A DNA stretch of 64,000 nt. It comes from an uncultured Verrucomicrobiae bacterium (lineage in GTDB: Bacteria > Verrucomicrobiota > Verrucomicrobiia > Limisphaerales > Palsa-1400). Positions within the stretch are counted from its first letter, which is position 1; each line of letters opens with the position of its first letter. The DNA lies in assembly GCA_963702845.1 (NCBI GenBank), contig OY969763.1, forward strand, positions 4,992,001 through 5,056,000. The letters run 5' to 3'. The notes beneath the pieces were generated by a model. The model saw nothing but the letters and a program-made list of their open reading frames with translations, was not told where the DNA came from and did no database searches. Positions 2,450 through 48,980 of this stretch are shown in pieces. Position numbers and translations under genes: made by a program.

Positions 2450-3517
2450 TTACATCGCGGCACTGGCCGCGCCAACCGCCACCGCCAGTTGCGATGACAT
2501 TTGTTCCAACTCGGTAGCCTGCTCCGGCGGGAGTCCTTCGACCTGCAACTCGCGCGCAGGATTCCACGTTTCGCAGCTAATCATCATCTCCGTCTGGAGC
2601 TGGTCGCGGATGTAATCAGAACGTGCCGCGCCGCCAGAGAGATAAACCTTTTCCACATGCTGATCATGTTGGTGCTCGAAGAAGTCGACCGAAGCGCGCA
2701 GTTCGCGCCCGAGTGGCGCCACCAGCGGTTGCAGGTGGTCCTCGACTTCCGTCGGCATACCGACCTTGATCCCCTCGGCTTCGGCGTAACTAATGCCCAT
2801 CGACTCAGAGAGCCCGGACGTCAGCTTGTCGCCGCCGATTTCAACGACGCGGCTTAAAAGCAAATTGCCTTTGGAAACAATGTTAATTGTCGAATGTTTG
2901 AAACCCAGATCAACCAGGGCGAAGACTTTCGTCTCAAAAATGTCAGGGTGCACAAACTCAAACGCGTTGACCGGCCCAACGATCGTCAAAGCCACTTCAT
3001 CAGGAATAAACCCAGCCGTCTTGACGGCAGTTTGGAGATCATTGATGAGACTGGTCTTCGCACCGCCGGTCCATACTTTGAATTTTTGAACTGAGCCTTT
3101 TACGCTCTCGGTTTTCTTTTTCGGGTCATTCGGAACGATGTAACAGTCAAACGTGTGATCGGAGAGATCGTGTTGCAGATAGGCTTTGCTGTTCAATTGC
3201 AACATCTGCCGCATTTGGCTGACCGGCAGCAACGGCAGTTCAATGCCGCGCAAAATGGAATCGTGCGCACTGATCGAGAGGGTCATCTGCCGGGTTTTTG
3301 GCTCGAGCGACTGCGCCACCTCGCGCAAGTGTTCTGCCAACATCGTCGCCGAAAATCCATGTTCGTATACCGGCGCCTCTTTAATCGCGTAGCGCGCCAA
3401 TCTGAAGCCGTTGCCGCTTCTCTGCAGCAGCACGGCTTTTGTCGTGCGCCCGCCGAGATCGATCGAAAGGACCTGGTCGCGCTTCTTCTGGCCCACTAGA
3501 GGGAAGTTGAAATTCAT
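2450..3517 (-). CDS. pilM: Type IV pilus assembly ATPase-fold protein PilM
   Basis: Actin-like motifs SIDLG, ALVDLG, EIGGDKLT, EAEGIK, VYLSGGAA; downstream of prepilin genes. Confidence 0.85.
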   Translation of the reverse strand: MNFNFPLVGQKKRDQVLSIDLGGRTTKAVLLQRSGNGFRLARYAIKEAPVYEHGFSATMLAEHLREVAQSLEPKTRQMTLSISAHDSILRGIELPLLPVSQMRQMLQLNSKAYLQHDLSDHTFDCYIVPNDPKKKTESVKGSVQKFKVWTGGAKTSLINDLQTAVKTAGFIPDEVALTIVGPVNAFEFVHPDIFETKVFALVDLGFKHSTINIVSKGNLLLSRVVEIGGDKLTSGLSESMGISYAEAEGIKVGMPTEVEDHLQPLVAPLGRELRASVDFFEHQHDQHVEKVYLSGGAARSDYIRDQLQTEMMISCETWNPARELQVEGLPPEQATELEQMSSQLAVAVGAASAAM

Positions 3518-3565: not shown

Positions 3566-5773
3566 TTACTCTGATACAGTGGTGTAGCGTTGTGTCAGTG
3601 GAATTTCGTTCCAGGTTCTAATGGCGAAGGCAGCGGTCGGACCGGTCTTCCTGAGCTCTTCGTCGTAATGGAAGTGGAAGTGACCATTGAGAGTCGCTGA
3701 ATTTACGACGGCCGCGCCAATGAAGTCGGTCGTGTTGTTACCGCCGCCATTTAACGAAAAGTCCGCCTCTGGGGCATATATAGAGCCAGTGAATCCCGCG
3801 TTGCCGGAGAGTGAGATGCTGGTGTTACCAGGCAGACCATAATACATGAAGCTCGTTGCAAGGCCATCCTGGTTCCACACGCCATTTCCTGAAAGTTTGA
3901 CGCTCGGCGCTGAAGTGTAGAGCTTGAGAGTGGCGCCAGGGGCGATCGTGATGGAGGAGGTGTTGATGTCGTCGGTGACATACAGGACAGCATTACCAGT
4001 TACCAGGACGTCTCCGCTGAGAGTGCCAATCTCGTAATTGCCGTTGCCGAGCAGAAAATCATAGGAGCTCGCGGTTGGAGCTGTGGTTGTTGTCGTATAG
4101 ATATAATAGGTGTAACTGACGATTTGTGCCCAGGTCCAACCGGTGATCAGGCTGTAGGTGTAGCTGGCAATCCCTTCATAAGTGTAACCAGAAACCTGGT
4201 TATAGGTATAACTGGTGATCTGGCTGGAAGTATAACCGGTGATCTTGCTGTATGAGTAGCCTGAGATGGGATACCAGTTCCACGCAGAACTGTTATTATT
4301 ACCATTACCGCCCTGCCAAGGGGGGGTCGAAGGGCAGTAGGTCCCGACGGCAGGACGATTTTTATCCGAAGCAACCGAAGTGCTACAATTGGTCGTCACA
4401 CTGCCCAGGTAAGATCCAGCACCCGGGTAACCGCCGGAGCTCGCGGGCGTCGTATTAGTTGTCACTGCGCCTAGATAGGTGCCAGCGGATGGGTAACTGC
4501 TAGAGATCGTGGAGGTGGTATTAGTTAACACCAGACCCACATAGGTCCCAGCGGTTGGATAGCTCGAGGAAGTGGTCACAACGGTGTTGGTTACAGGGGT
4601 TCCAATATAGCCGGTAGGAAATGAGGAGCTGCTGAGGTTCGCGGTATTGGTTATGACTGCCCCAACATAGGTTCCGGCGGTGGGAAACGTTGTCGTTGTT
4701 GTAGTCGTTGTATTTTGGTTGGGCGTGCCGAGATAGGTTCCAGCGGAAGGAAAACTGGTAGTCGTAACGGTTACTGTGTTGGTCGTGATGGGGTCCATCC
4801 CAGCCGGCCAGGTCGTCACTGTATTTGTGACTATCGCCGCGTTCCGAGCAGCATTTGTCGATATACCAGGACCAGGCGTCAAATAACCACCGGTAAATGG
4901 CACTTGCACGTCCGGAAGATAGACGTTCATGTCATCGGAGAAATAGCCGGGCTCGATGCCGCTGTGCGACTGCTGCCAGGCAAGGTCACCGACTGCACCA
5001 TTAGGTCCGAGGGCTATGCTTCCGCCCGGTCCAGTTTCAGCGTGTCCGTAGATATTCGCATTGCCGAGGTTCACAGAATTGATAAGACCCGAGACAACTG
5101 CGATGTCGCCGTTTGCCTTATTTTTGGTCGGGTCGTACTGACCTCCCGTGCTGTAGGCGGGATCGCTTGAATCGAAGCTGTCGGTTTGAACGCCGTTACC
5201 ATGCATGTCGATGCTGTTTTTTGCCACGAGGCCGTGGGCAAAGATGGCTTGCGATCCGCAGTTGACTTGAACCTTGCGGGCGACATCCGAAGAACCGATC
5301 CCAGTTTGAGTCTGCGTTCCAATCTGCGCAAGAAAGGGAAACGGCGCACCGAAAATAGTGCCAGTCAGACTGGCAAGATGTCCCTGGGACACCACCGCAG
5401 GGTTGGTCCTAGAAAACGGAGCAACTGTAACAATATCAACTGTGTAGCCGGCGCCGTTCGGTAAGGAGGTCGTCTTTTCATATCCTATATCGATGGCATT
5501 CCAGCCTTGGGTGGCCCAGGGGTTGTTGCCGGATTGATGTGTAATATCCGAGTAAGCGCAGTCGTAGTTCAAGTGCGCCATCGCTTCTTCGATGCCCGCC
5601 TCGACAATCGGAATGCTGGCATTCCAATTTTGGGAACGCGCCACGGCCTTGTTCTCCCCATCGGTCAAGTTGAGGAAGGTCAGCAGCGCCAACCCTGCGA
5701 AGCCCAGGATGCAAATCGCAACGATTAGAACATTGGCGCGCTCGCTTTTTCTTTGAGTGATTTTAGTTTTCAT
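3566..5773 (-). CDS. PilX-like minor pilin with large Thr/Ser-rich repeat insertion and Gly/Asn-rich C-terminal beta-rich domain
   Basis: Basic leader + hydrophobic helix lacking E5, 'IVEAGIEEAMAHLN' PilX-N motif, C-terminal 'GSIYAPEADFSLNGGG...FHFHYDE'; third gene of a prepilin trio. Confidence 0.78.
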   Translation of the reverse strand: MKTKITQRKSERANVLIVAICILGFAGLALLTFLNLTDGENKAVARSQNWNASIPIVEAGIEEAMAHLNYDCAYSDITHQSGNNPWATQGWNAIDIGYEKTTSLPNGAGYTVDIVTVAPFSRTNPAVVSQGHLASLTGTIFGAPFPFLAQIGTQTQTGIGSSDVARKVQVNCGSQAIFAHGLVAKNSIDMHGNGVQTDSFDSSDPAYSTGGQYDPTKNKANGDIAVVSGLINSVNLGNANIYGHAETGPGGSIALGPNGAVGDLAWQQSHSGIEPGYFSDDMNVYLPDVQVPFTGGYLTPGPGISTNAARNAAIVTNTVTTWPAGMDPITTNTVTVTTTSFPSAGTYLGTPNQNTTTTTTTTFPTAGTYVGAVITNTANLSSSSFPTGYIGTPVTNTVVTTSSSYPTAGTYVGLVLTNTTSTISSSYPSAGTYLGAVTTNTTPASSGGYPGAGSYLGSVTTNCSTSVASDKNRPAVGTYCPSTPPWQGGNGNNNSSAWNWYPISGYSYSKITGYTSSQITSYTYNQVSGYTYEGIASYTYSLITGWTWAQIVSYTYYIYTTTTTAPTASSYDFLLGNGNYEIGTLSGDVLVTGNAVLYVTDDINTSSITIAPGATLKLYTSAPSVKLSGNGVWNQDGLATSFMYYGLPGNTSISLSGNAGFTGSIYAPEADFSLNGGGNNTTDFIGAAVVNSATLNGHFHFHYDEELRKTGPTAAFAIRTWNEIPLTQRYTTVSE

Positions 5774-5782
5774 AGCAGTGAA

Positions 5783-6328
5783 TTATTTTTTCCGTATGAC
5801 AATTTTCGCAGTTTGGACGACTTCCGTATTGTAGAGCGCCGACCCGTAAAGGCTGCGTTTACAGGTCCAGGTGACCTGAACGACTTTGCAAAGGGCCGCA
5901 TTGGAGGTAATCGGATATTGGTTGTAGGTGTTGTTACTGGTGTTCCGCTGAAAAAGGTCAAAACGCAAATCAGTGCAATGATCCAGTAACTTGGTGGCAT
6001 TCCCATTCTTCCAGCGCATCAGACTCTGGGCATTGGGATCGTAAATAAATTTTAGGGTTTGATGGTCGGGGGCATCTTCGAAATCGAGTTCCTTTGCGGT
6101 GTTTGCCACAAGACCGAAAGTCTGCCGAATATCCATCGTCATGTGGTCCAAGGCATTTCGGCTTTCATTTTCCAGATCGGCATAGTTCGCCACCGCGGCG
6201 AAGCTGCGCATCGTGAACAGCGAAATTGAGGCGAGCGTCGTCAGAACTACCGCTCCAATGCCCGTAGCCACGAGCATTTCAACCAGGGTCATGCCAGAGA
6301 AGGTGCGCTTTTTGAGCTTAATAAACAT
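5783..6328 (-). CDS. Prepilin-type N-methylation domain protein (PilW-like)
   Basis: Class III signal KKRTFSG|MTLVEMLVA followed by a hydrophobic helix. Confidence 0.88.
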   Translation of the reverse strand: MFIKLKKRTFSGMTLVEMLVATGIGAVVLTTLASISLFTMRSFAAVANYADLENESRNALDHMTMDIRQTFGLVANTAKELDFEDAPDHQTLKFIYDPNAQSLMRWKNGNATKLLDHCTDLRFDLFQRNTSNNTYNQYPITSNAALCKVVQVTWTCKRSLYGSALYNTEVVQTAKIVIRKK

Positions 6329-6794
6329 ATTGTTGTAAGCCCTGACGAGCCACGAGGGTTTGCATCGTGCGGGTGCGCTGCACGCCGGAGGAGGTCCAGT
6401 TCAAGGTCACCGTCACCAGCTTCAAATCGGACGAATAGCTGGTACCCAATGGCGAATTCACGATGGTCATGGTGCCGTTGTAGGTCACACCAATAGCCGT
6501 GCCAGAAGTGTCAACCGAATAATTCTCGGTGAAATTGGTCGGGATAACGAACCCGTTGGCACCGTTGATCTGGTCCCACGTGTAAAGGCGGATGGTTTCG
6601 AACTTTTCGAGAATAAGCTGAGTCGCGCGCAGATTCTCACGGGTAACCTGAGTCACGCTCATGCCGTAAGTAATTCCTGTATACAGACTTAAGGTCCCTA
6701 AAAGAACCAAAACGGAAGCAACAAACGTCTCCAGCAGCGTGAACGCGTGGCTGCCGCAGCGTTTCGAAGTCGTTAATGCTAAGCGTAATTTCAT
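6318..6794 (-). CDS. Prepilin-type N-methylation domain protein (PilV-like)
   Basis: Start taken at ATG 6794 (MKLRL); HA|FTLLETFVA class III signal; RENLRATQ motif. Confidence 0.85.
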   Translation of the reverse strand: MKLRLALTTSKRCGSHAFTLLETFVASVLVLLGTLSLYTGITYGMSVTQVTRENLRATQLILEKFETIRLYTWDQINGANGFVIPTNFTENYSVDTSGTAIGVTYNGTMTIVNSPLGTSYSSDLKLVTVTLNWTSSGVQRTRTMQTLVARQGLQQYVY

Positions 6795-6967: not shown

Positions 6968-9900
6968 ATGCCAGCCAACGGCCAACAAGTGATGTTACCG
7001 GAGCAATTGCGCCTGCAGTTTGCATCCGTGGAACGCAGGCTTTGGCGCGTCGAAACAGCCGTCGCGGTCTGTTCTGTCGTCGCGGCGCTGGTGATTTCGT
7101 GGTTGATGCTCTTTGTTTCCGATCGCATTTGGCCCACGCCGGTCTGGTTGCGCGCCCTGTTATTCGGTATCGGTCTGGCGGTGGGTGCCGTCGCGGTGCT
7201 GCGTTGGATGGATCGTTGGGTCTGGCACAAACGCGACCAGCGTGAACTGGCGATGTTGGTGCAAAAGAAATACCGCAAACTCGGCGATCGCTTGTTGGGT
7301 ATCGTGGAACTTGCCGGTGAACACCAGCATTCCGCTAATTTTTCCCCTGCCCTGTATCGCGCCGCGATTGAGCAAGTGGCTAACGAGGCGGTCGGTTATA
7401 ATTTTCCGGCCAGCGTCAGTTCGCAGGCAGCGCGCAAATTTTCCACAATCGCGGCGGCGGCGATCATTTGTTTAATGCTCGCGTGTGTGGCGTTGCCGCT
7501 GGCGAGTTGGAATTCGATGCTTCGTTGGGTTCTGCCCGCGGCCAATATTCCGCGTTATACGCTGGTGACGCTTGAAGGGTTCCCCGCGGAAATCATCGTT
7601 CCGCACGGTGAACCGTTCGCGCTGTCTGGTCACGTGAATTACCGTTCGTTCTGGAAACCGCATAATATTTTCGGATTGATCGGCACCCAACCGAAGATCG
7701 CGGGTTCGTCACGATCAGGCAGCGTGCAATTGCAGGTGCCGGCCCAGGTGGAGAATGGCGTGTTGGTTGTCCGCGCGGGCGACGCAGAAACGCGCGTCAA
7801 GATTTTGCCGAGCTTACGTCCCGCGATTAAAGACCTGAGTGCATCCATCCAACTGCCATCATACCTTCGTTACGAACCGCAAACGCAAAAGCTCAATAGC
7901 GGTGCGTTACTCGTGCTCGAAGGAAGCCGTGCCGCGTTCGCGGGCAGTATGACTCGTCCGCTCATCGAAGCGAACATGAGCAGTGAACCGGGCTCAGCTA
8001 TTCCATTGAAATTGAAGGACGAAAATTTTTCCACCGAGCCAACTCCGGTCGATGGTGTTTCGCACTTCACGATGACGTGGAAGGATAATTTAGGGCTCAC
8101 CAATGCAGCGCCGTTGCGGCTCTCGGTCCAGACGCAAAAAGATTCCCCACCGATGCCCGAGTTACCGGATTTACCGCGCGATTGCGCCATGCTCGCCAGC
8201 GACGTTCTCACGATTAAACTCGAAGCACGCGACGACTTCGGGGTGCGCGACATCGGTTTGGTATGGGATTTCGCGTCCGATAACCCAGGCTCGCAAAGCG
8301 CCGTTACGGAAACAAAAGTCCAAACCGAATCGCCGCACGAAAAGAAAACTGAGCACGAGTTTAAGTGGAGCCCGTCGCTTTGTCGCATCCCGCCTGATTC
8401 GGTTGTGGAACTCCAGGGCTATGCGCGCGATTACTATCCTGAACGCGAACGCGTTCGTACTCCGCCGTATCGCATTCGTGTTTTAAGTCCCGAACAACAT
8501 GCGGAAATGTTGCGCCAACGTCTGGAAGCCTTGATGTCCAGCTCCGAAGAAGTCACACGTGCCCAGGAAAAAGTCGTCGCGAACGCACGCGACGCGAAAG
8601 AAAACGCCAAGCTCAACGAACAACAACAAAACGCGCGCCTCGGCCAAACCAAGGACGACCAAAACCGCAACGCAAACGATTTGCAAAATCTCGCCAAAGC
8701 GGGCGAACGTGTTCTGCAGGAAGCGATGAAGAACCCGATCTTCAAGGAAGACACGGTGCAAAAATGGAGCAAGACGTTGCAGCAATGGCAGGATCTCGCG
8801 AAACAAAAAATGGGCGATGCCGCCAAGTCGATGCAATCAGCCCAGCAAAGTTCGAAGAACTCCGACGCGCGCCAACAAGAGATGGCCAAGGCTGTGCAAA
8901 AAGCGCAGGAAGCGCTCGAAGCTTTGCAAAAGATGCAGCAGAAGGCCTCAGAAAATCTCGATCAGTTGCAGGCCTTAACGCTCGCTGAGCGCCTTCGCCG
9001 GGCCGGCGCACGAGAAACTGAAATCAGCGGTGACCTGCAAAAGAACGCGCAGGAAACCGTTGGGCTGTTGCCGAGCGAGTTGCCTGACAAATTGAAACAG
9101 CAGGACGCAACTTTGGCGAACGGCCAACAAGCGGTGCAACAGGAAGCCAGCAAGCTGCAATCGGAGATCAGCCGTTTTTCCGAGCGCACCAGCAAAGTGA
9201 ATTATCTCGAGGTAAGCAAGGCCATGAAAGAATCGCGCACCTCCGACGAACTCGATCGTCTCGGCGGCGAAATTCGCGACAACATCGTTCTGCAATCCTC
9301 CACCGACTTGGGCGAGTGGTCGAAACGTTTTGACGATTGGGCTAAAAAGCTCGAGCCGGAAAAAGATTCTCAAGGCGGCGACGGCAAAGGCAGCGGGCAA
9401 TCCAAGAAAAACGACATGACAAAAACGCTGGTCGCACTCCTTCGGCTGCGCGAAGGGGAACTTACCTTGCGCGATCAAACCAGTTTGCTCGACGGCAATC
9501 GTGGCACTGAAAACGATTACAAAAGCGCCGCCAAGGACCTCGCCGCGAAACAAAAAGAAATCGCCGATAAACTCGACGCTCTGGAAAAGGACAACAGCAT
9601 TCCCTCGTTGATGAAGCCGTTTGTCGAAACTTATGACTCGCTCGCTGAAGCGCAGGGGCTCCTGGACAAACCGCAAACCGACAAAACCACCGACGACGCC
9701 CAGGTCAAATCCGTTGACCTCATGACCGACTTGATCAACTTGATCAATGAACAGGCGAAACGTCCGCCACCGCAATCGCAACCGCAGCAATCCGAGCAAC
9801 AATCCAGCGCGGAAGATATGGCTTTCCTCATGCAGATGATGAAAAACGCGCGCGAAAGCCAGAGCAAGCCGATGCAGAATTCCGGCGGTGGTAACACTAG

Positions 9901-10069
9901 CGGCGGCAGTGCCAATCGTGCCGGTGGCCCGATCAACGGCAATGTTCAAGGCAAAGGTGCCGCTGCGAGAAACGTTGGCAAAGCGAGCAGCGTCATTGAA
10001 AATGCGCCGGCAGAGTTCCGCGACGCGTTAGAAAATTATTATCGTGGCATCGAACAGAACACTCACTAG
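6968..10069 (+). CDS. Large membrane-anchored coiled-coil protein (DUF4175-like)
   Basis: Three N-terminal TM segments, 'LGDRLLGIVEL', Ig-like middle, 'ARDDFGV', Q/K-rich coiled coils, terminal 'PAEFRDALENYY'. Confidence 0.75.
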   Translation: MPANGQQVMLPEQLRLQFASVERRLWRVETAVAVCSVVAALVISWLMLFVSDRIWPTPVWLRALLFGIGLAVGAVAVLRWMDRWVWHKRDQRELAMLVQKKYRKLGDRLLGIVELAGEHQHSANFSPALYRAAIEQVANEAVGYNFPASVSSQAARKFSTIAAAAIICLMLACVALPLASWNSMLRWVLPAANIPRYTLVTLEGFPAEIIVPHGEPFALSGHVNYRSFWKPHNIFGLIGTQPKIAGSSRSGSVQLQVPAQVENGVLVVRAGDAETRVKILPSLRPAIKDLSASIQLPSYLRYEPQTQKLNSGALLVLEGSRAAFAGSMTRPLIEANMSSEPGSAIPLKLKDENFSTEPTPVDGVSHFTMTWKDNLGLTNAAPLRLSVQTQKDSPPMPELPDLPRDCAMLASDVLTIKLEARDDFGVRDIGLVWDFASDNPGSQSAVTETKVQTESPHEKKTEHEFKWSPSLCRIPPDSVVELQGYARDYYPERERVRTPPYRIRVLSPEQHAEMLRQRLEALMSSSEEVTRAQEKVVANARDAKENAKLNEQQQNARLGQTKDDQNRNANDLQNLAKAGERVLQEAMKNPIFKEDTVQKWSKTLQQWQDLAKQKMGDAAKSMQSAQQSSKNSDARQQEMAKAVQKAQEALEALQKMQQKASENLDQLQALTLAERLRRAGARETEISGDLQKNAQETVGLLPSELPDKLKQQDATLANGQQAVQQEASKLQSEISRFSERTSKVNYLEVSKAMKESRTSDELDRLGGEIRDNIVLQSSTDLGEWSKRFDDWAKKLEPEKDSQGGDGKGSGQSKKNDMTKTLVALLRLREGELTLRDQTSLLDGNRGTENDYKSAAKDLAAKQKEIADKLDALEKDNSIPSLMKPFVETYDSLAEAQGLLDKPQTDKTTDDAQVKSVDLMTDLINLINEQAKRPPPQSQPQQSEQQSSAEDMAFLMQMMKNARESQSKPMQNSGGGNTSGGSANRAGGPINGNVQGKGAAARNVGKASSVIENAPAEFRDALENYYRGIEQNTH

Positions 10070-11039
10070 AGCCGCCGTCCTGATCGCTTTGATAACGCTC
10101 GCTATTGGCGCGCGTGCGCAACAGCTTTACCAATCCAGTTCCATGCCGGTCGAGGTCGAGCGTATTTACGTCAAAGCGATGGATTACCTGGCCAAGTCGC
10201 AACTGCCCGCCGGCAATTGGTCCGATTCAACGCACGGCTCCGACCCGGCCGTCGTTGGCCTCGCCGTCGTCTCGATGCTCGCCCATGGTGACGACCCGAA
10301 CTTGGGCCCTTACAGTACCGCAATTAAACACGGTCTCGATTTTATTTTAAAACTGCAGGATCCGAAGACCGGCTACATCGGCACCTCCATGTATAATCAC
10401 GGCTTCAGCACTCTGGCATTAGCGGAATCCTACGGCGCCGTCGACGACCCGCGCCTCGGCCCGGCTCTGCAGAAGGCGATCGAACTGATCGTCGACAGCC
10501 AGGAACATAACGCGCAGCACGCCTGGCGTTACTCGCCGCAAAGTACCGATGCCGACACGACCGTCAGCGGCGCACAGATGGTCGCACTTTTTGCCGCGCG
10601 AAATGCCGGCGTTCCCGTTCCTGAAAAGGCGATTCAAAACGGAATAAAGTTTTTCCTCTCGATGCAAACCCCGGAAGGCGGCTTTGGTTATACGTCGCCG
10701 GTTGGCCCGAATGGTCCACGTGCTGCCATCGGCTGTTTGATTCTCGCCCTCGCTAAAGAAAAAGACTCACCCGCGTTCAAAGCCGCCTTTGAATATTTGA
10801 AAAAAGCGCGCAGTGAATCGCAGTATCCGGAGTATTTCGCCTACTACGCTTCGCAAGCGTTTTTCCACGGTTCGCCCGAGCAATGGCAAACCTGGAATCG
10901 CGACAACATCAAAACGTTGAAAGCTACTCAAAGCGTCGATGGAAACTGGGACGGCCAATTTGGACCGGTGTTTGCCACGTCCGCGTCATTGTTGTCGCTG
11001 GCGTTGAATTATCGTTATCTGCCAATCTATGAGCGCTAA
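10044..11039 (+). CDS. Secreted prenyltransferase/squalene-cyclase-repeat (alpha/alpha barrel) protein
   Basis: Signal peptide; repeated QW-like motifs (YLAKSQLPAGNW, QTPEGGFGY, QSVDGNW); MYNHGF; DADTTVSGAQ. Confidence 0.85.
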   Translation: MASNRTLTRAAVLIALITLAIGARAQQLYQSSSMPVEVERIYVKAMDYLAKSQLPAGNWSDSTHGSDPAVVGLAVVSMLAHGDDPNLGPYSTAIKHGLDFILKLQDPKTGYIGTSMYNHGFSTLALAESYGAVDDPRLGPALQKAIELIVDSQEHNAQHAWRYSPQSTDADTTVSGAQMVALFAARNAGVPVPEKAIQNGIKFFLSMQTPEGGFGYTSPVGPNGPRAAIGCLILALAKEKDSPAFKAAFEYLKKARSESQYPEYFAYYASQAFFHGSPEQWQTWNRDNIKTLKATQSVDGNWDGQFGPVFATSASLLSLALNYRYLPIYER

Positions 11040-12489
11040 ACCGCGCAAACTTCAAAATTCAAACTCCAAAACTCAAGGAAGTGTTTTTGAGTGTTGGGGT
11101 TTTCTTGGAGTTTGGAGTTTGGCATTTGGAGTTTTCTTCTGTGCGTTGGCGGCGTTCGCCAAACCTGCATCCGAACCTGCACCCGTTTCCGGCGACCTGC
11201 TACAATTCCTCGACGGCTCCGCCTTGCACGGCCAGATCACCGCGATGAATACGAACACCGGTGTTCGTGTGGACAATCCAAACGTCACCCAGCCTATCGC
11301 CTTTAAACCCAATCACGTCGACTTCATTCGTTTTTCCAAAGCCGAAGCCCTGCCGACAAGCGCTGAGTCCGGCAATTGTCACTTCCGGTTTTTCAATGGC
11401 GACGAAGTCTTCGGGGTGTTGAACTCGCTTGACGATCACCACCTTGAGCTCACCGCATGGTTCGGCAGCGTCTTGAAAATTCCGCGCCCGGCTGTGCAAT
11501 CGATCACATTCCTCTCGCGCGGCTACCGCGTTGTTTATGAAGGGCCGACCGATCTCGATGGCTGGAGCGTCAGCGGTGTTCCGGGCGGCGCGAGCAACTG
11601 GTGGTACCGCGACGGCTCATTCTTCGGTGCTGCCGGCACGCTCGGGCGCAAGTTCGACCTCACCAACTCCTGCACCGTCGAATTCGATCTCACCTCAAAA
11701 GCGACCTATCAAAATTTGATGCTCAGCCTCTACACCGATTCCATCGACCGTCTCGACTTCGGCAACGACGGTTACATCTTCACCTTTTCCGCCGACAGCG
11801 CTCAACTTCGCCGCGCGCAACGTGGCGTGTCTCCCGTCGATATGGGCAACGCGGTTCTTGCGCATCCCGACAGTAAAGATCGCGTCCACATCACCATTCA
11901 CGCCAACAAAGAAGACGGCAGCATCACGCTCATGGCCAACAATCAGGTCGCCAAACGTTGGAAAGACAGCACAGGCTTCGCTGCCCATGGTACCGGGCTC
12001 TTGTTCGAAAACATTGGCGGCGGCCAGCCAGTCCGCATCAGCAATCTGCGCATCAGCTCATGGCAAGGCCGCTTCGAGCCGGACACAAATCCTCTCATCC
12101 AGACCAACGTCGATTCCGTCCTCTTCGCCAATCGCGATCGCGCGCAGGGAAAAATCACTTCGTTTCAGGACGGTAAAGTCGCGCTCACTGCCGGAACGAA
12201 TCATCTCGATGTCCCGATGCAACGCGTCCGACAGATTACTTTTGCTCCCGCTCCGAATGCGCACGAAGAGCGCGGGCCGTGGGAAGTCCGTGCGTATTTT
12301 CTACGCGGCGGCATGATTTCTTTCCGGCTCGCCAATTGGGACAAAGACAAAGTTTCCGGTGAGAGCGCCATTTTCGGTCCGCTCTCGTTTCAAACCCAAA
12401 CCGTGCGCGAGATGGAATTCAATTTAGACAAACGCCGCGGCGACACTCTCGCTGCTGTGCCCGACGAATTCGGAGGTGGCGATGAATAA
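11029..12489 (+). CDS. Hypothetical exported protein (repeated small beta domains + lectin-like core)
   Basis: 486-aa ORF overlapping the upstream stop; 'D.L.F.NGD...G' repeats; paralogous to the next gene. Confidence 0.7.
   Translation: MSAKPRKLQNSNSKTQGSVFECWGFLGVWSLAFGVFFCALAAFAKPASEPAPVSGDLLQFLDGSALHGQITAMNTNTGVRVDNPNVTQPIAFKPNHVDFIRFSKAEALPTSAESGNCHFRFFNGDEVFGVLNSLDDHHLELTAWFGSVLKIPRPAVQSITFLSRGYRVVYEGPTDLDGWSVSGVPGGASNWWYRDGSFFGAAGTLGRKFDLTNSCTVEFDLTSKATYQNLMLSLYTDSIDRLDFGNDGYIFTFSADSAQLRRAQRGVSPVDMGNAVLAHPDSKDRVHITIHANKEDGSITLMANNQVAKRWKDSTGFAAHGTGLLFENIGGGQPVRISNLRISSWQGRFEPDTNPLIQTNVDSVLFANRDRAQGKITSFQDGKVALTAGTNHLDVPMQRVRQITFAPAPNAHEERGPWEVRAYFLRGGMISFRLANWDKDKVSGESAIFGPLSFQTQTVREMEFNLDKRRGDTLAAVPDEFGGGDE
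11039..11135. repeat. Heptamer-repeat inverted element (AAACTCC-like ... TTTGGAG-like) inside the 5' end of a CDS
   Basis: aaacttc aaaattc aaactcc aaaactc ... ttggag tttggag tttggca tttggag. Confidence 0.7.
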
Positions 12490-13934
12490 ACTCTGCGCAC
12501 TCCTCCTTTCCCTCGCTGCCGCCTGCCTCAGCGCAACGGGCCAGGGCATCATTATTCGCGGCGGCGGACAAATCCAGGTCCAGGGCAATGGCGTCCTGCT
12601 CTTCAATTCGCCGACAATTGTTAACGAACTGCCGGACATTTCGATCCCATTGGGCAACACCTCCGACAGCGTGCTTTTTACCAACGGTGATTTTCTTTAC
12701 GGCAAATTGCTCGGAATCGGCCCGCGACACGAAATCCGCTGGCAACATCCCGATGCCACCGCGCCCATTGAGTTCAAGTCCACCAACATCAGCCAGATCG
12801 ATCTCTCCAGCACCCGTCGTTCGCTTGAGGAAACGAACAATTGCAAAGTCGACTTCATCAACAATGACACCCTCAAAGGCACCTTCGTCTCGTGTGACAA
12901 AGATTCGCTCGTGCTCGACACCGCCTATGCCGGACAGCTTCATTTGTCTCGTTCGATGTTGGAATCGTTGGTGATTATCCCGTCCGCACAACCCGCCATA
13001 TTCGAAGGGCCGGCCGGCATCGACGGCTGGACTCCCGGCAAGTCCGTCGCCATTCCGATGAGTGAATCCGGCCAGTTCTCGTTTCGCAACGGCTCATTTT
13101 ACGCAACCAAAGCAGCCTCGATCGCACGCGACCTCCATCTGCCCGAGACCGCGCAAATTGAGTTCGATCTCGTTTGGAAATCCACACTCCACATGGCAAT
13201 CGCGCTTTACACCGATTCTCTTCAACCGGTCAGCCTCGCCTCGAAAGAGACCGCGCCCGACTTCGGCGGTTTCTACAGTTTTCAGGTCAACAGCTCCTAC
13301 ATGGACATGATGCCGATTAAAAAGAAAGACCCGCTTAAATCTCTTGGCGCCATTGCCGTTCCCGCGTTGATGCAGCGCAACCGCGCGCACTTCGACATTC
13401 GTGCCAGCAAACGCGATCATAAAATCGCCCTGCTCATCAACGGCGTGTCTCGTCAAAGAATGGATCGACCCCGACGGCTTTGCCGGCCAAGGTACCGCGA
13501 TGCGTTTCGTCCATCAGGGCCAGGGCTCGATCAAACTGAGCAACATCCGCATCCGCCCCTGGGACGGCCAACTTGAACAACCCTCTCCAGCCCCAGCCCA
13601 TCGCCCGACTGACAGCGTCCGTCTCGCCGACGGCTCACGTTTGAACGGCCAAATCAATGGCATCAACAATGGCAAACTTTCGATTACCACAGACACAACA
13701 ACCGCTTCCCAGGTCAATCTCTCGCAGCTTCGCCAAATCGATTTCGCCAGCCAGAACCTGTCAGCCACTCAGACCAATTCTCAACCCGTCAAAGTTCTTC
13801 TCACTCCAGGCTACACCATCAGCGGCCAGCTCGAGAGTTGGACACCCGACGCGCTGACGTTGACGAGCCCCTCATTCGGCAAAGCGAAGTTTGATCCGAA
13901 AGCAGTTTCACGCCTTCAATTCACACACGACTAA
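12482..13934 (+). CDS. Hypothetical exported protein, paralog of upstream gene; split by one frameshift near 13447
   Basis: ORFs 12476-13576 and 13401-13934 join (LLING..|VKEWIDPDGFAGQGT), matching 'VAKRWKDSTGFAAHGT' in the paralog. Confidence 0.7.
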
Positions 13935-14105
13935 GTTTTTATTTCACCGCCCGTTCTGTTTACTGAACTCAAATTTTTCCCAAAGTTAACCCCTTGCCAA
14001 AAACTGAAACCGCTCCGAGGTTCTCTTTGGGTAACGCAGGCAGGATTGAAGGGACACGCAGGAAAGGGGTTTAAGGGACCAGGAAAGGCATGAGGGTAAG
14101 GTTTT

Positions 14106-14189
14106 AGAGCTTTGCGCAGAACCGCTAGTAATCCTCGCAAGAGGGAACGCGAAAAGGATCTAACGATCCGCCGTCCTACGCAAAGCTCT
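14106..14189 (+). ncRNA. Candidate structured RNA (three-way junction), family unassigned
   Basis: Outer stem agagctttgcg/cgcaaagctct enclosing tcctc-GCAA-gaggg and ggatc-TAAC-gatcc hairpins; AGTA/GAA internal loop. Confidence 0.5.
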
Positions 14190-14247
14190 TGTTGCAGTCA
14201 TCGTTGGCCAAATTTTTGAATCGTAACTTCATCCAGGGCGTCGGATA

Positions 14248-16896
14248 ATGCGACGCGTGATGGTGAAGACTTTCAAACAACGGGTGCTTTGGGTGTTTCT
14301 GGCGTTTGTGCTCGTCTCGTTTTCCGCATCGGCCGCACCTTCGGAAACAAACGCATTTTCCGCTGCTGCAAAATTGTTCCAGGACAATTTTTACGGCCGC
14401 GCTGAGACCGGGTTCAGCAATTTCGTCGCGACCTATACCAACTCAATTCATCGCCCGGTCGCGATTCTCTATCAGGCCCGCTCGCGTTTTTACCAAAGCA
14501 ATTACGTCGGCGCCATTGATCTACTGCAACAGAACCAGGCCAAGGCGAATGGTTCCGCAGACGAATATCAGTTTTGGATTGCACGTTCTCTGTTCGAAAA
14601 ACCCGACTACCGCGCCGCCGCAGATGCTTTTGGCGTTTTGCTCCAAAATTACCCGCACTCCTCGCATCGTCTTGACGCCGCGTTTACCCAGGCCAAGGCC
14701 TATTCCGTTTTAGGCGACTGGCCCAAAGTCATCCAACTCCTCGAAAAGCCCGACGGCAATTTCCAATCGGCAGCGCGCACCCAACCCGACAACCTCGTCG
14801 GAGTCGACGGCTTCCTATTGCTCGCTGAAGCGTTGTTCCGTGAGCATCGCAACGCCGATGCTGAAGAGGTCGTGCGCGGCATGAAGGTCGATCCTTCGAT
14901 GAAAGAGGCCAACTGGCGCAGATATTATCTGCTCTGTCGAATTCAATTCGCCGCTGGTAAAACCCAGCGCGCGTTGACGAACACCGCAACCATGCTAAGC
15001 GCCGCGATCGGCCAGCGCCAGTGGATGGCTGAATCAAAATTTCTCGAAGGCGAAATCCTGGAAAAACTCGAGCGTTACGCCGACGCTTTGCAGTCCTACA
15101 CCAACAATCTTGCCGAAGATTTGCCGACCAACATCCAACGCCAATCGCTTTTCAAGACAATCGACCTGATGCTCAAGCTCGGCCAAACCGACGAAGCCAT
15201 CAAACATCTCGAAACGTTCATCGAAGAACGTCCGAAAGATCCAGCCCTGGACGTGGCACGCTTGTCGTTGGGCGAATTGGATTTGAAAGCCTACAACGCA
15301 GCCCTTCGTTCGCCGCCCGCCGCCGATTCCGCTGCAGCCGCGACCAACCTGTTGCAATCGGCCATCACCAATTTTGATCGCGTCATCGCTGATTTCCCGC
15401 AAAGTCCGTTGCTCGGCAAAGTGCATCTGGATCGCGGTTGGTGCGATTGGTTGCAAGGCCACGTCCGCGAAGCGCAAACGAATTTTTCCGAAGCCGTGCA
15501 GCGTCTGCCATTATCCGAAGATCAGGCCATCGCCCGCTTCAAGCTCGCTGACACGCAATATTCCCAGACCAACTATCCAGCGGCTTTGACCAACTACAAT
15601 CTCGTCGTTCAAAGTGCGCAATCCCTGCCGCCGATCAAAGAAGGTTTGTTCGACGAGGCGCTCTATCAAATTGTCCGCTGCGCCATTGCCTGCGGTGATG
15701 AGAAAACCGCCAGCGCCGCGGCCGAAAAAATCCAAAGCCTTTATCCAAACAGCCTGTTCGTGGACCGCGCGTTGCTCTTGTTCGGCGAAGATCAGAACCG
15801 CCGCCGTAATTACGGTGAAGCGCGCAAAACATTTTCTCAGCTGCTCGACAAATTCCCGAACACAACCGTTCGTCCGCAAGTGCAGTTAGCCATCGCCCAG
15901 AGCTACGCGCAGGAAAGTTTGTGGGCCGATGCCGCGACGCAATACGACCAATGGGTGGCGAAATTCCCGCGAAATCCGTTGTTGGCACAGGCCGAATTCT
16001 GCCGCGCCCTCGCTTACGACAAAGCTGGGAAGGAAACCAACGCCTTCATGCTGTTTACCAATTTCGTCGCGCGCTTTCCGAGCAACACATTCGCCGCGTG
16101 GGCGCAAAACTGGATTGCTGATGCCTATTTCAATCAGGACGCGTACGTGCCGGCCGAAAAAGCTTACCAGGAACTTTATCAGCGCTACCCCGCTTCCGGT
16201 GAACTTGCCTACCAGGCGCGTTTAATGGCGGCTCGCGCTGCGCTTGCCGGCCAACGTGCACCCGACGCCAGCAGTTATTTGCTGGAACTAATCAACGACA
16301 CCAACGCTCCAGCATTAATCGTTTCGCAAGCACATTTCGCGTTCGGTGATGCGAAGGTGCAGCAATTTCATGACAGCCTCAAAGAACCGACCTGCACGAA
16401 TTATTTCAGGGAAGCCCTCGCCGCGTTCAGCATCCTGACCAACGGCGTGCCGACCAACGCCACCGCTCCGCTGGCCATGGGTCGCATTGGTGATTGTTAC
16501 TTCGCATGGGCCACGGACAAATCCGAACCTGCATTGTTTGACTCAGCGATTGCCGCCTTCTCCAGCGCCGCCGCCATGCCGCAAGCCACCATCGAAACAC
16601 GCAGCCAGGCTGAAGTCGGCATCGGCCGTTGCTACGAAGCCCAGGGCAAGCTCGACCTCGCCCTTGAACACTACAGCAAAGTCATTCCTGATTTCAGCGA
16701 GGATCCGACCCGCTTCAATTCATTTTGGGCCAAAGAAGCCGGCGTGCGCGCTGCTGCTGTTTGCGAAGCGCAGCAGCAATGGGACAAGGCTGTGAACGTT
16801 TACAATCGCGTCAAAAACCTTTTCCCCGCCCTGCGCCCGACACTCGACAAAAAAATCGCGGCCGCTCAACAACATAAAGCAGCGGCGAAAGACTAA
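14248..16896 (+). CDS. Exported tetratricopeptide-repeat protein
   Basis: Signal peptide (ASA-AP) and many 'A...F..L...YP.S' TPR units. Confidence 0.9.
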   Translation: MRRVMVKTFKQRVLWVFLAFVLVSFSASAAPSETNAFSAAAKLFQDNFYGRAETGFSNFVATYTNSIHRPVAILYQARSRFYQSNYVGAIDLLQQNQAKANGSADEYQFWIARSLFEKPDYRAAADAFGVLLQNYPHSSHRLDAAFTQAKAYSVLGDWPKVIQLLEKPDGNFQSAARTQPDNLVGVDGFLLLAEALFREHRNADAEEVVRGMKVDPSMKEANWRRYYLLCRIQFAAGKTQRALTNTATMLSAAIGQRQWMAESKFLEGEILEKLERYADALQSYTNNLAEDLPTNIQRQSLFKTIDLMLKLGQTDEAIKHLETFIEERPKDPALDVARLSLGELDLKAYNAALRSPPAADSAAAATNLLQSAITNFDRVIADFPQSPLLGKVHLDRGWCDWLQGHVREAQTNFSEAVQRLPLSEDQAIARFKLADTQYSQTNYPAALTNYNLVVQSAQSLPPIKEGLFDEALYQIVRCAIACGDEKTASAAAEKIQSLYPNSLFVDRALLLFGEDQNRRRNYGEARKTFSQLLDKFPNTTVRPQVQLAIAQSYAQESLWADAATQYDQWVAKFPRNPLLAQAEFCRALAYDKAGKETNAFMLFTNFVARFPSNTFAAWAQNWIADAYFNQDAYVPAEKAYQELYQRYPASGELAYQARLMAARAALAGQRAPDASSYLLELINDTNAPALIVSQAHFAFGDAKVQQFHDSLKEPTCTNYFREALAAFSILTNGVPTNATAPLAMGRIGDCYFAWATDKSEPALFDSAIAAFSSAAAMPQATIETRSQAEVGIGRCYEAQGKLDLALEHYSKVIPDFSEDPTRFNSFWAKEAGVRAAAVCEAQQQWDKAVNVYNRVKNLFPALRPTLDKKIAAAQQHKAAAKD

Positions 16897-23980: not shown

Positions 23981-26061
23981 CAAACGACAATCAAACTACC
24001 TCTGCTTCGCGCCTCGGCGCCATTGCGTTGAAAATTTTGCCATGGTGTTTTTTCGCATTGTTCGCGACCGAAATTATTGTCGTGTTCGGGCCAAAGAGCG
24101 ACAAAGCCGGTTTTAAAACGCGCGAGTTCGGTGCGTTGCCTGTGTCTGTTCAATGGTCGTATTCAGCCCTTCGATTCCGTTGGCCTCAATTCCCTGCGCC
24201 AAATCCGCAGCACCAGCGACGTCCCGCTGGAATACGTTACGAATAAACTCGGCGTCGTGGAGGAAGTTCCGGGTTGGAAATTCTGGCACCATCCGAAAAA
24301 GCTGAAATCCACCGAATGGTTGATGGAAGTGATGTTCAAATCGGAACAGGCCGATGAGCGTCCGATTTTCCTCATCCACCATCCAGACATTTCTGGCCGA
24401 ATTGAAACTCGGCGACAAAGGCATCGAAAATTCCGGCCTGCGCTATTACACGTTCAATCAGCTCAAGCCGCTGATGATCGGAAATCTGGGATCAAGCCGG
24501 CCTGGCATATCAAGCCGACGAAAAGCAACGGTCTCCACTGCAGAAGCAGGTCATCAAGCTGCAAAACGCGCTTTTCCTCTATGAAAACTTGAAGGTCGCC
24601 ATCGTGCCGCCCTATTTCGACGATTTTGCCGCTGCAATATAAGAGCTGGGAGAAAACGATCCGCGCCCGGGCATGGCCGCCATCGAAGCGCAACAAGCCC
24701 ACAAAACTTACGACACCAATGCACTGGAACATTCTGGATGCCGGTCAGCGCCGCCTAGGCAGTTCTCCACCAACCAATATGCCGGCCGTTATTACCCAAT
24801 GGTGGTTCCGCCACCGGACCCCAACCGAACCGCGATAACTGGGGCAACATCGGTCAAAGGCTTCCTTGACGTCGCCAGCGAAAAGAACCGCGGTTATCAA
24901 CCCGTCCGCAACTTCGCCACCATGGCCACCGCTTATAGCAAGGCGACACTGCCGAATTCAACAAAGCGCTCGTCGAATACAAGAGCTGGTTGCAGCAAAA
25001 ATTCGCGCCTGAAGTTAAAAAGGGTAGCGAAGAGTTTTATCTTCAACGACACCAAGCCATTCCTGCACGCGACGATCATTTACATTTTCGCGTTTGTGCT
25101 CGCCGGATTTTCGTTGCTGACGTTCTCGGCATTGCGCCGACTTTCGGAATCGCTGCGCAAATCGTCGTTTTATCTCGTCATGCTCGCGGGCGTCGTTCAT
25201 ACGTTCGGCCTGATTTTCCGTATGTATCTGGAAGGCCGGCCGCCGGTCACCAATCTTTATTCGTCCGCGATTTTCATCGGTTGGGGTGCGATGATTCTCG
25301 GCCTTGTCCTGGAACGAATTTATCGCGTCGGCATCGGCGTCGCAGTGGCGTCGTTGCCGGTTTCATCACATTGCTGATCGCCCACAACCTCGCCCTCGGC
25401 GGCGACACAATGGAAATGATGCGCGCCGTGCTCGATACCAATTTCTGGCTCGCGACCCATGTCGTTGTCGTCACGCTCGGTTACGCCTCCACCTTCGTCG
25501 CCGGTTTCCTCGCGATCGTTTACGTCGCTCTCGGCTGGACCACGCGCTTGCTCGCGCCAAACGCCGCCGCGACACGCGCTCCGTCCGGAGCCGCCGATTC
25601 CACCGGACCTCGGCAAATCACTGGCCAAAATGGTTTACGGCATCGTCTGCTTCGCCACGTTATTCAGCTTCGTCGGAACCGTTCTCGGCGGCATCTGGGC
25701 CGACCAATCGTGGGGCCGTTTCTGGGGCTGGGATCCGAAAGAAAACGGCGCGCTCATCATCGTCCTCTGGAACGCGCTCATCCTCCACGCCCGCTGGGGC
25801 GGCATGGTTCGCGAACGCGGCCTGATGGCGATGGCCATCTTCGGCAACATCGTGACGAGCTTGTCCTGGTTCGGCGTGAACATGCTCGGCGTCGGCCTCC
25901 ACTCCTACGGTTTCATGGACCAGGCGTTCTGGTGGCTGATCGCCTTTGATATCAGCCAATTGTTACTCATCGTGATGACAGTCATCCCGACGCATTACTG
26001 GAAGAGTTTCAAACGTGATGACGGAACAGGTCCAGCGCTGACAACACCAGCCGCTGCATAG
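23977..26061 (+). CDS. ccsA: Cytochrome c biogenesis protein CcsA (System II); broken by many frameshifts, probably sequence errors
   Basis: Fragments in several frames: NGRIQPFDS, GRPPVTNLYSS, LDTNFWLATHV, GGIWADQSWGRFWGWDPKE (WWD), GVGLHSYGF. Confidence 0.85.
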
Positions 26062-26188: not shown

Positions 26189-27272
26189 GTGGCTATGGCC
26201 AAAACCCGCGTCGTCATTGGGATGAGCGGCGGCGTTGATTCGTCCGCTGCGGCAGCCTTGCTTTTCGAGCAGGGCTATGACGTCGTCGGCATCACTCTCA
26301 AGCTGTGGCCGCAGGATTGCGTCTCTCGTGCCGAAGACAAATGTTGCGGCCCGCAAGCGGTCACGGACGCTCGCAGCGTCTGTCACAAGCTCGGCATTCC
26401 TTACTATCTCATCGACGAAGCCGACGCGTTCCAAAAGCAGGTCATCGCGTATTTCGCTGAGGAATACAAAGCCGGCCGCACGCCAAACCCTTGCGTCATG
26501 TGCAATGAAAAGTTGAAGTTCGGCGCGTTGCTCGACCGCGCCCGCCAACTCGGCGGCGATTTCATCGCAACCGGCCATTTCGCCCGCGTGGAAAAAAATG
26601 CCGAAGGCTCCCGCACCCTGTTGAAACGCGGCCTCGATCCGCGCAAAGACCAAAGCTATTTCCTTTTCTCGCTGCGACAGGACCAACTTGCGCACGCCAT
26701 GTTTCCGCTCGGTTTTAAGACGAAGCAGGACACGCGCGAAGTGGCCCGGCACTGCAATCTCAAGACCGCCGACAAAGAAGAGAGCATGGAAATTTGTTTC
26801 GTGCCGGACAACGATTACGGCGCGTTTCTTTCAAAAGCGAACCTCGTCCAACCGCACAAGGTGAAATCGTTGACCTGCAGGGCCGCATTCTCGGTCATCA
26901 CAAGGGAATTGAGTTTTACACCATCGGCCAGCGCAAAGGCCTCGGCATCACATCGCCGAAACCCTTTATGTCATCGAACTCGACGCCGCAAACAACCGCG
27001 TCGTCGTCGGTGATGACTCAGCTTTGGATCGCGATGAATTTGTGATCGAACGTTGCAACTGGATTCCATTCGAGAATCCGCCGGCGCAAATCGAAGCGAC
27101 GGCGAAAATTCGTTACAATCACCCTGGCGCGCCGGCGACAATTACTCCGCTCGACGACGGCAAAGCAAAAGTGAAGATGCACACTATTCAACGCGCGATC
27201 ACGCCCGGGCAGGCGTGTGTGTTGTATCAGGACGACCTAGTGGTCGGCGGCGGTTGGATTGCTCGCGGTTAA
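26189..27272 (+). CDS. mnmA: tRNA 2-thiouridylase MnmA (CxxC type); two frameshifts near 26860 and 26960
   Basis: [62 protein letters not shown] across three ORFs. Confidence 0.93.
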
Positions 27273-32345: not shown

Positions 32346-32427
32346 CCCGTATGTGCCCACCACCCTGTTGTCTTGCCTTGCGAGCCCATTCCGAGTATTG
32401 ATTTTACTGCCCAAGCGACACCTCTTT

Positions 32428-48900: not shown

Positions 48901-48980
48901 GGGCGATTTTGCAGAATCTGCATCAGGCATGGGGATACTTTTTGCGGACGAACCAGAGTGGGGCGTTTGGGATGCAGTAG
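45945..48980 (+). CDS. Large exported protein: Ig, RCC1-like repeats, Ig, poly-Pro, small repeat domain and C-terminal beta-rich region
   Basis: Signal peptide; 'LSYQWFK.G..I.GAT' Ig motifs; 'AVACGYNHGLALRYDGTL' RCC1-like; P8 run. Confidence 0.82.
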   Translation: MKTTLLLVAACLDLAMGVRASGPNIVMQPANQRTCSGGNVMFSVYSDDTNALSYQWFKGENRIAGATDARLVLRNVTDADVDSYSVMVRVGADSTVSSNATLILYADGNVMGNSVLLSPQLESLSRIKAVACGYNHGLALRYDGTLLTFGRPVSGQYQGPYNIFSYLPPGLTNATAIAVDDTSVGMALQANGIPRVWAFEASRELPVPAEAHDVVDIAATTAVAVALRADGTVVCWQFNTNSGAFGATNSGAFVPDPITDAVAISAQSQVASVLRRNGTVLQWNQSGMVQFTPDVTNVCKLVTGNFSVVMLQDGEVITWFQGGGYNGASQTVVPTLILDPPTNIVELALNNEVLTSDGSLVPLQSSPFGVNTRVGLGLVEHVAGSVMIRQADTPVIFYLYIAPQLTGQLPVVLGQSAKLLAGEARKILVSAAGRARLSYQWFKDGKIVAGATSSALYLRGLTTDSGSYTVLVRNRAGATTSHAVDVSVAQPALTVSGLPSIRTTNDTVHYEGTYPIGNTLMIGVYPTVRIPPPPPPPPIAPSVFQYVPTGPTYGPTPTLETNGSIVSWSVDFPLPAGTNAFSFWNVGPDQGATITRQVYRVATSRLTMNIFGGYVQPNLNGRELEVGKTYTLRASPAIGFYFAGWYEASSNSPVVISGNLNSPTFTFTMVSNLVVNPLFHPNPSQAFNGLYRGLVYPDEGIDHETSGYIEVLLERWGTYTARLLLGGTTYRFSGSFSNPATNSLIEYPGLQTVVYLPRPGKVPLTVLLSRGYGIEGYVTDNYTYSFIAADLPAYNPDQAGRYTVVFAGATNNVGPFGNGYATVMVSAAGALTMVGSLADGTPISQSTAALQNGMFPLYVPLYKGNGSIISWVPVQSIALNFPFSWTRPSDSTGGLFAQGFTNEFLLTASRYSPTGNVFGTNQASIFVQSEDGNVNLVDPCAISSSGALSIDPSSGDDLHIYVNRATGSFSGSFVAPDTKQVVPVRGAILQNLHQAWGYFLRTNQSGAFGMQ

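What the first reader, a model, noticed from the sequence alone, without database searches (positions are those of the whole stretch)
4100..4830. PilX-like pilin with a nested out-and-back repeat stalk
Seen: the insertion has about 7 outbound 18-22 aa units (consensus xxxxSSSYPxAGTYxGxVxTNT), then a tip segment with two Cys (TTNC...GTYCP...WNWY), then exactly 7 returning 8-aa units (PISGYSYS, KITGYTSS, QITSYTYN, QVSGYTYE, GIASYTYS, LITGWTWA, QIVSYTYY). Inference: each outbound module is completed by one returning strand. That would form a hairpin rod whose length changes only by paired duplication at two distant sites, displaying a disulfide-closed tip from the pilus tip complex. I do not recognise this as a described pilin architecture.
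Basis: partly seen in the sequence, partly recalled or inferred. Interest (0 to 1): 0.7.

Follow-up and report, generated by a model that had tools for sequence, protein, structure and literature searches.

The report
Pilin with nested out-and-back repeat stalk
This bacterial pilin-like protein carries two different repeat series that relatives gain and lose together almost one for one, and that are predicted to zip into a single rod of adjustable length, likely extending the reach of the pilus tip.

Summary
Confirmed. The 735-aa gene (3566-5773, minus) is a PilX-like pilin after pilV- and pilW-like genes and before pilM; its predicted body resembles ComZ (pilin plus beta-solenoid). An insert at a host hairpin holds Pro-loop units of about 22 aa, a tip, then 8-aa Tyr units. 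Across relatives (0 to 18 modules) the two arm lengths co-vary: independent-contrast r 0.995 and 0.96 in two pilin scaffolds; 29 of 31 new proteins fit within 12 residues; 16 of 16 stalks picked by pilM match by eye. Spare cysteines on both arms sit at mirror height in 6 of 6 proteins. AlphaFold2 of the whole protein makes the return arm one 77-residue strand; the stalk alone did not fold confidently and no contact map was available. Corrections: one homolog has an unmatched outbound unit, and the tip cysteine pair is in 9 of 60 stalks, on the outbound arm only. The module also occurs in HpsA-like PilX and in secreted Ig-domain proteins. Out-and-back stalks are known (antigen I/II, chemoreceptors); I found no report of this beta type. 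This scan noted a similar layout on other DNA. Function is inferred.

The parts
6318..6794 (-). PilV-like minor pilin gene (start taken at the ATG at 6794)
   Evidence: Prepilin-like N-terminus seen in the sequence; no Pfam or NCBIfam hit; homologs precede the PilX gene in 11 of 14 insert-bearing loci
5783..6328 (-). PilW-like minor pilin gene
   Evidence: N_methyl PF07963 over cut-off; homologs in 11 of 14 insert-bearing loci
3566..5773 (-). PilX-like, ComZ-like pilin, 735 aa, host of the stalk
   Evidence: DUF7305 E 2e-17; model matches ComZ (Foldseek E 5e-4; VIA Z 13.7), GspK (Z 10.9) and DUF3494 solenoids (Z 17.7)
5618..5737 (-). N-terminal hydrophobic pilin helix (res 13-52)
   Evidence: Sequence; helix 12-52 in the model
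4874..5245 (-). Beta-solenoid, part before the insert (res 177-300)
   Evidence: Model and fold search
4817..4873 (-). Outbound base strand, extending the host hairpin (res 301-319)
   Evidence: Strand 301-319 in the model; insert-less relatives have a short hairpin here
4778..4822 (-). Short base Pro-loop unit (res 318-332)
   Evidence: Parse
4388..4777 (-). Six full outbound units of 20-22 aa (res 333-462); most predicted as a 14-residue strand plus a loop of 6-8 residues
   Evidence: strands 347-360, 369-382, 389-402, 411-424, pLDDT about 75-87
4268..4387 (-). Tip unit with Cys463 and Cys480 and the turn (res 463-502)
   Evidence: low confidence in the model, pLDDT about 47-57
4103..4267 (-). 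Seven 8-aa return units (res 503-557)
   Evidence: part of the unbroken strand 499-575
4049..4102 (-). Return base strand rejoining the host (res 558-575)
3647..4048 (-). Beta-solenoid, part after the insert (DUF7305 positions 47-184; res 576-709)
2450..3517 (-). pilM-like gene directly downstream
   Evidence: PilM_2 over cut-off; TIGR01175 E 7e-30, below its cut-off

Best explanation
The protein is a PilX-like pilin with a predicted ComZ-like body, and its insert likely folds as one out-and-back beta rod in which each outbound unit of about 22 residues is predicted to zip onto 8 residues of a single returning strand, which would push a thin hairpin tip beyond the cap of a type IV pilus. Shown: anatomy, insertion site, 1:1 co-variation, mirror placement of spare cysteines. 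Predicted: overlapping 14-residue outbound strands on one continuous return strand. Inferred: about 2.6 nm per module from the usual beta-strand rise (about 25 nm here with the base ribbon, about 50 nm for 18 modules); length changes by separate local duplications or deletions in each arm, with a one-unit bulge tolerated for a time and selection restoring the match; role as a spacer that reaches surfaces, polymers or DNA.
For: Arm lengths: r 0.986 (38 DUF7305-type proteins) and 0.93 (22 HpsA-like), with two turns mis-called; independent contrasts r 0.995 (36) and 0.963 (21), slope 2.7-2.8 against 22/8 = 2.75 expected. Automated unit counts equal in 47 of 60. The line predicts the outbound length within 12 residues in 29 of 31 further proteins. 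In 20 same-family genomes chosen by pilM, stalks run 0, 2, 3, 4, 5 modules; r 0.994 on 15 parsed, and 16 of 16 match by eye. Six of six proteins with a spare Cys on both arms have them at mirror height; five independent cases, mean offset 0.09 mirror against 0.56 parallel, p 0.004. L010 has young 66-bp and 24-bp arrays in both arms, and its most alike units occupy the same modules (DNA correlation 0.65 mirror, -0.07 parallel). The full model gives pLDDT about 75-87 for both arms and one strand 499-575. Host fold and operon.
Against: The stalk folded alone gave mean pLDDT 43 with the return arm unstructured (13-row alignment). No coordinates were available, so the register in the full model was not read; pTM is 0.54. 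P0019 has one unmatched outbound unit, and P0110 lies 22 residues off the line. The protein-level mirror test was inconclusive (mirror above parallel in 8 of 15); at DNA level it favoured mirror in 2 of 4 genes. Five proteins have a lone Cys on one arm. Most tips are plain short hairpins (42 of 60), so a ligand-binding tip is not shown. No localisation, expression or binding data.
Confidence: 0.62

Rival explanations
1. The rod forms as described, but its side surface (regular Thr, Ser, Asn and Tyr arrays) is the binding site for a linear or crystalline polymer; more modules give more avidity and the tip is only a turn.
For: Most tips are minimal hairpins. Thr is 25% of the outbound arm and Tyr 21% of the return arm. 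The host solenoid resembles ice-binding proteins. The module also sits in secreted Ig-domain proteins.
Against: The Tyr positions are near-invariant structural-looking anchors on both arms, which fits small cores. Distinct elaborate tips recur, including a Cys type in both scaffolds.
Confidence: 0.22
2. The arms pair between chains (an intertwined dimer or trimer, as in phage fibre needles) rather than within one chain.
For: Matched counts would be needed in that case too; the isolated monomer did not fold confidently; T4 gp37 chains go out and back in a trimer (PMC9603124).
Against: The monomer model with the host body is confident in both arms. PilX/GspK-type subunits are usually single-copy in tip complexes (own knowledge).
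Confidence: 0.07
3. The cassette caps a type II secretion pseudopilus or stays in the periplasm, and the stalk acts there (for example in secretin gating) rather than outside the cell.
For: GspK matches at Z 10.9; the genome has 14 matches to the PilB/GspE ATPase family.
Against: pilM follows the cassette in the window and L076, and follows the HpsA-like version in 20 of 20 family members. ComZ and cyanobacterial PilX with this body are proposed pilus-tip proteins. The same stalk occurs in non-pilin secreted proteins.
Confidence: 0.06
4. The two series are independent low-complexity linkers, and the co-variation reflects shared ancestry.
For: The stalk alone gave a low-confidence model; within-gene mirror similarity is weak.
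Against: Independent contrasts r 0.995 and 0.963 with slope near 22/8; out-of-sample fit; mirror cysteines.
Confidence: 0.03

Closest known systems
ComZ of Thermus thermophilus (PDB 6QVI; PMC6561018) and cyanobacterial PilX-Com / PilX-EPS (HpsA-like) pilins (PMC13759059)
   Same: Pilin fold with a beta-solenoid like that of ice-binding proteins; encoded with other minor pilins; proposed tip cap. ComZ is the top Foldseek hit and spans the model at Z 13.7. The second scaffold matches part of the HpsA model.
   Different: In the passages read, neither is described with a paired out-and-back repeat insert. DNA binding, shown for ComZ, is untested here.
Streptococcal antigen I/II adhesins (SpaP, SspB)
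   Same: [quoted passage not shown]
   Different: There the arms are an alanine-rich alpha-helix and a polyproline II helix (recalled; the primary paper was not held) holding a large variable domain on a wall-anchored Gram-positive protein. Here the predicted stalk is beta, the units are 22 + 8 residues, the tip is mostly a bare hairpin and the host is a pilin. No sequence match to any solved structure.
Chemoreceptor (MCP) cytoplasmic hairpins
   Same: Hairpin length varies by matched insertions or deletions in both arms (PMC5907407, passages).
   Different: Alpha-helical coiled coil, equal heptads on both arms, cytoplasmic.
Periscope proteins (SasG, Rib, SHIRT; PMC8201768)
   Same: Surface rods whose repeat number sets how far the end projects (abstract).
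   Different: Their repeats are contiguous tandem domains with high DNA identity; here each module is split between two distant segments, and the window's units are diverged.
T4 long tail fibre needle (gp37)
   Same: Each chain runs out to a tip and turns back, as an insertion in another domain (PMC9603124, passages).
   Different: A trimer; no variable paired repeats are described in the passages read.

Membership tests
ComZ-like / PilX tip pilins | N-terminal hydrophobic pilin helix and pilin head fold | tested here: met
   Helix 12-52 in the model; GspK Z 10.9 and other pilins Z 5-8. PilX_N did not hit the protein itself; Atlas neighbours carry DUF7305, some PilX_N.
ComZ-like / PilX tip pilins | Beta-solenoid inserted in the pilin fold | tested here: met
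   DUF3494 solenoids Z 15.7-17.7; ComZ Z 13.7 over model residues 47-726, rmsd 11.7; on a predicted model.
ComZ-like / PilX tip pilins | Encoded with partner minor pilins and pilus genes | tested here: met
   pilV- and pilW-like genes upstream, pilM downstream.
ComZ-like / PilX tip pilins | Binds the neighbouring pilin and sits at the pilus tip | not testable with these tools
ComZ-like / PilX tip pilins | DNA binding and role in competence | not testable with these tools
   A ComEC gene lies in the window, which is context only.
Antigen I/II adhesins | Stalk formed by two flanking regions pairing around a central part | tested here: met
   By co-variation, mirror cysteines and a predicted model; not by experiment.
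Antigen I/II adhesins | Alanine-rich helical and proline-rich repeats, variable domain, wall anchor (features recalled) | tested here: not met
   Arms are Thr/Ser/Gly- and Tyr/Thr-rich and predicted beta; host is a pilin; no such Pfam hit.
Periscope proteins | Variable repeat number in a surface rod | tested here: inconclusive
   Number varies from 0 to 18 between species; variation among strains of one species was not seen, read coverage being sparse.
Periscope proteins | Contiguous tandem domains with high DNA identity | tested here: not met
   Modules are split between two arms; no DNA array in the window or L076, one in L010 at 78-81%.
HpsA (NF038301) | Score over the curated cut-off (second scaffold only) | tested here: not met
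   P0029, P0045, P0048 score 51-67 bits against 400, on a C-terminal stretch; the window protein has no hit.

The most novel reading that the evidence does not exclude
A new repeat fold: a portable, self-zipping beta rod built from modules split between two distant chain segments, swapped between two pilus-tip scaffolds and secreted adhesins, that sets the length of a one-molecule antenna (up to about 50 nm) able to project through the secretin even when the pilus is retracted.
Probability: 0.3. Interest if true: 0.85.

Novelty: new variant of a known kind. Interest (0 to 1): 0.72.

Why it matters
Nearly all extensible bacterial surface rods repeat contiguous domains. This family appears to repeat a module whose two halves lie far apart in the chain, with a graded natural series from 0 to 18 modules in two scaffolds. 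That makes a standing question directly testable: how nested repeats change length when two sites must change together. The series offers a natural unmatched case (P0019) and natural cross-arm cysteine pairs as rulers. It would add a new kind of tip appendage to type IV pili in Verrucomicrobiota, and a thin rod of tunable length with both ends at the base would be a useful design scaffold.

Tried and rejected
No sequence match in solved structures for the whole-protein profile (0 hits) or the stalk profile (one at E 1.6). Pfam on the insert gave only a below-cut-off DUF6554 hit. The Atlas gave no usable hit for the insert. No homolog among proteins over 1287 aa (weak evidence). Fold searches with the full model were filled by the pilin and solenoid, so the stalk fold is barely tested; viral hits had rmsd 40-60 and were not used. 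The stalk-only model (pLDDT 43) was too poor to search with. CdrA was considered as a nested precedent from memory and dropped: 'nested' and 'discontinuous' do not occur in PMC13405001. The protein-level mirror test was inconclusive. The indel-position test leaned mirror (0.79 against 1.3 modules, 20 non-independent pairs) and is given little weight. The PilY1 search rang in no control genome and shows nothing. No RNA holder listed. (10 of 301 genomes) undercounts: four genomes without a match there carry short stalks. Loci L078-L080 were false hits. Promoter and terminator scans were uninformative. Regex anchoring failed and was replaced by alignment anchors.

Full report
Observation. The ORF at 3566-5773 (minus) encodes 735 aa without a break. 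It follows pilV- and pilW-like genes and precedes pilM. After residue 300 come a short base unit, six units of 20-22 aa built around a Tyr-Pro loop, a tip unit with Cys463 and Cys480, and seven 8-aa units with two aromatic residues. With base and tip counted on both sides the tally is 8 and 8. The module occurs once in the genome. Short contigs of other runs and an 88% identical relative show that it is real sequence.

Host. Relatives are from Verrucomicrobiota by their record titles. Most of the 74 loci lack the insert and have a short hairpin at the site; the insert opens at its turn. The AlphaFold2 model (28-row alignment, mean pLDDT 77.5, pTM 0.54) matches ComZ, GspK and DUF3494 solenoids. 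ComZ is a pilin with an inserted solenoid, proposed as a tip DNA receptor (PMC6561018, passages). Cyanobacterial PilX proteins share this body and split into a compact and an HpsA-like subfamily (PMC13759059, passages).

Three carriers. The same module sits in a second PilX-like scaffold with a partial HpsA match, in the same operon layout (L077). Profile comparison of the two scaffolds aligns the insert only. In 20 same-family genomes the gene before pilM is this second scaffold in 20 of 20, whereas the window and L076 have the DUF7305 type there. A profile search of 1.84 billion representatives gave 85 hits; besides the two pilin types, fragments and low-complexity noise, they include non-pilin proteins with the solenoid and stalk followed by Ig, cohesin or propeller domains. 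So the stalk moves between carriers (inference).

Co-variation. Of 65 insert-bearing sequences, 5 truncated ones were dropped. Arm lengths correlate at r 0.986 (38) and 0.93 (22), with two turns mis-called and then corrected by hand. Independent contrasts on trees of the host bodies give r 0.995 (36 contrasts) and 0.963 (21), slopes 2.7 and 2.8 against 22/8 (P0002 left out). Automated counts are equal in 47 of 60; by eye the 13 misses are parser errors at short base units, a Pro-less loop or a tip Pro. Of the 78 new hits, the 31 with DUF7305-type anchors on both sides were tested against the earlier line: 29 lie within 12 residues, one is a mis-called turn and one (P0110) is 22 off. The pilM-picked set gives no insert (2), a plain hairpin (1), a truncated gene (1) and 16 stalks of 2-5 modules, all matched by eye; r 0.994 on the 15 parsed (two are also among the 60). 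One real exception: P0019 has one more outbound unit than P0016 with an equal return arm, although the parser scored it as equal; it is on 9 contigs from three sources.

Direction of pairing. Among 91 inserts, six proteins have a spare Cys on each arm, all at mirror height; five independent cases give p 0.004 against uniform placement. Five proteins have a lone Cys on one arm. Extra-long segments also mirror by eye in P0021, P0016 and L076. In the model the return arm is a single strand 499-575, and the outbound arm gives 14-residue strands separated by short loops. The stalk alone, with a 13-row alignment, gave pLDDT 43 and no return strand. This is a result against; shallow alignment and the missing base could explain it.

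How length changes. L010 has young arrays in both arms (66 bp x 7.9, 24 bp x 9.1), and its most alike units lie in the same modules, yet some near-identical outbound units face unlike return units. The protein-level mirror test was inconclusive. With P0019, this favours separate local duplications in each arm and selection for a match over a single coupled event; a double crossover is not excluded.

Tip and function. Tips fall into a Cys type (9 of 60), two other motifs (9) and short or other hairpins (42). The window's tip is poorly predicted. I commit to a rigid spacer that extends the reach of the pilus tip (0.62). The rod itself I put at about 0.9; the main doubt is whether the tip or the side surface binds. 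Lengths in nanometres rest on the usual beta-strand rise (own knowledge).

Known systems. Out-and-back stalks exist in antigen I/II adhesins (PMC3656908, passages; the helix/polyproline detail is recalled, and the primary paper was not held), chemoreceptor hairpins (PMC5907407, passages) and the T4 gp37 needle (PMC9603124, passages). Variable-length rods are known as periscope proteins (PMC8201768, abstract and opening). Passages of PMC13405001, PMC7616799, PMC3004832 and PMC13730344 were read without finding this layout, and a term search of PMC9210967 gave nothing. No supplements were read; the alignments in S5 Fig of PMC13759059 could show cyanobacterial inserts. Ten library searches (listings only, except the papers named) found no description of this module or of DUF7305; subscription journals are largely missing. 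Verdict: a real and well-supported new variant of a known architectural idea, on a known kind of pilin; interest 0.72.

Noticed in passing
window 52566-54980 (+): ComEC/Rec2 competence gene (Competence and DUF4131 over cut-off).
   Followed up: partly
window 24673-26061, 26189-27013 and 12476-13934 (+): Genes that appear split over overlapping frames (a cytochrome c assembly-like gene, an mnmA-like gene, a secreted protein; names from reading the ORFs), perhaps indel errors of the assembly. The pilin ORF is intact.
   Followed up: no
G000 whole genome: 80 matches to the prepilin N-methylation motif and 14 to the PilB/GspE/PilT ATPase family, but only one DUF7305-type PilX by tblastn.
   Followed up: partly
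L033:4041-8920 and L051:3994-8899: Tandem pilV-pilW-pilX cassettes in which the first PilX lacks the stalk and the second carries a 3-module one.
   Followed up: partly
P0063, P0075, P0076, P0089 (stalk base): A four-cysteine mini-motif replaces the base unit; possibly two disulfides or a metal site.
   Followed up: no
P0098, P0122, P0095, P0032: A second, shorter module type (about 18 aa outbound, 5-7 aa return) sits at the base or makes up most of the stalk; mixed stalks keep mirror order by eye.
   Followed up: partly
L076 and P0022: Possible tip swaps: L076 groups with the Cys-tip clade by its body but has a plain hairpin tip; P0022, of the second scaffold, has a Cys-type tip.
   Followed up: partly
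window 32353-36960 and 45945-48980 (+): Large secreted-looking proteins with several Ig domains; the second has RCC1-like repeats.
   Followed up: no
window 6968-16896 (+): Divergent operon with a 1033-aa protein without a Pfam hit, a prenyltransferase/squalene-cyclase-like protein and a TPR protein.
   Followed up: no
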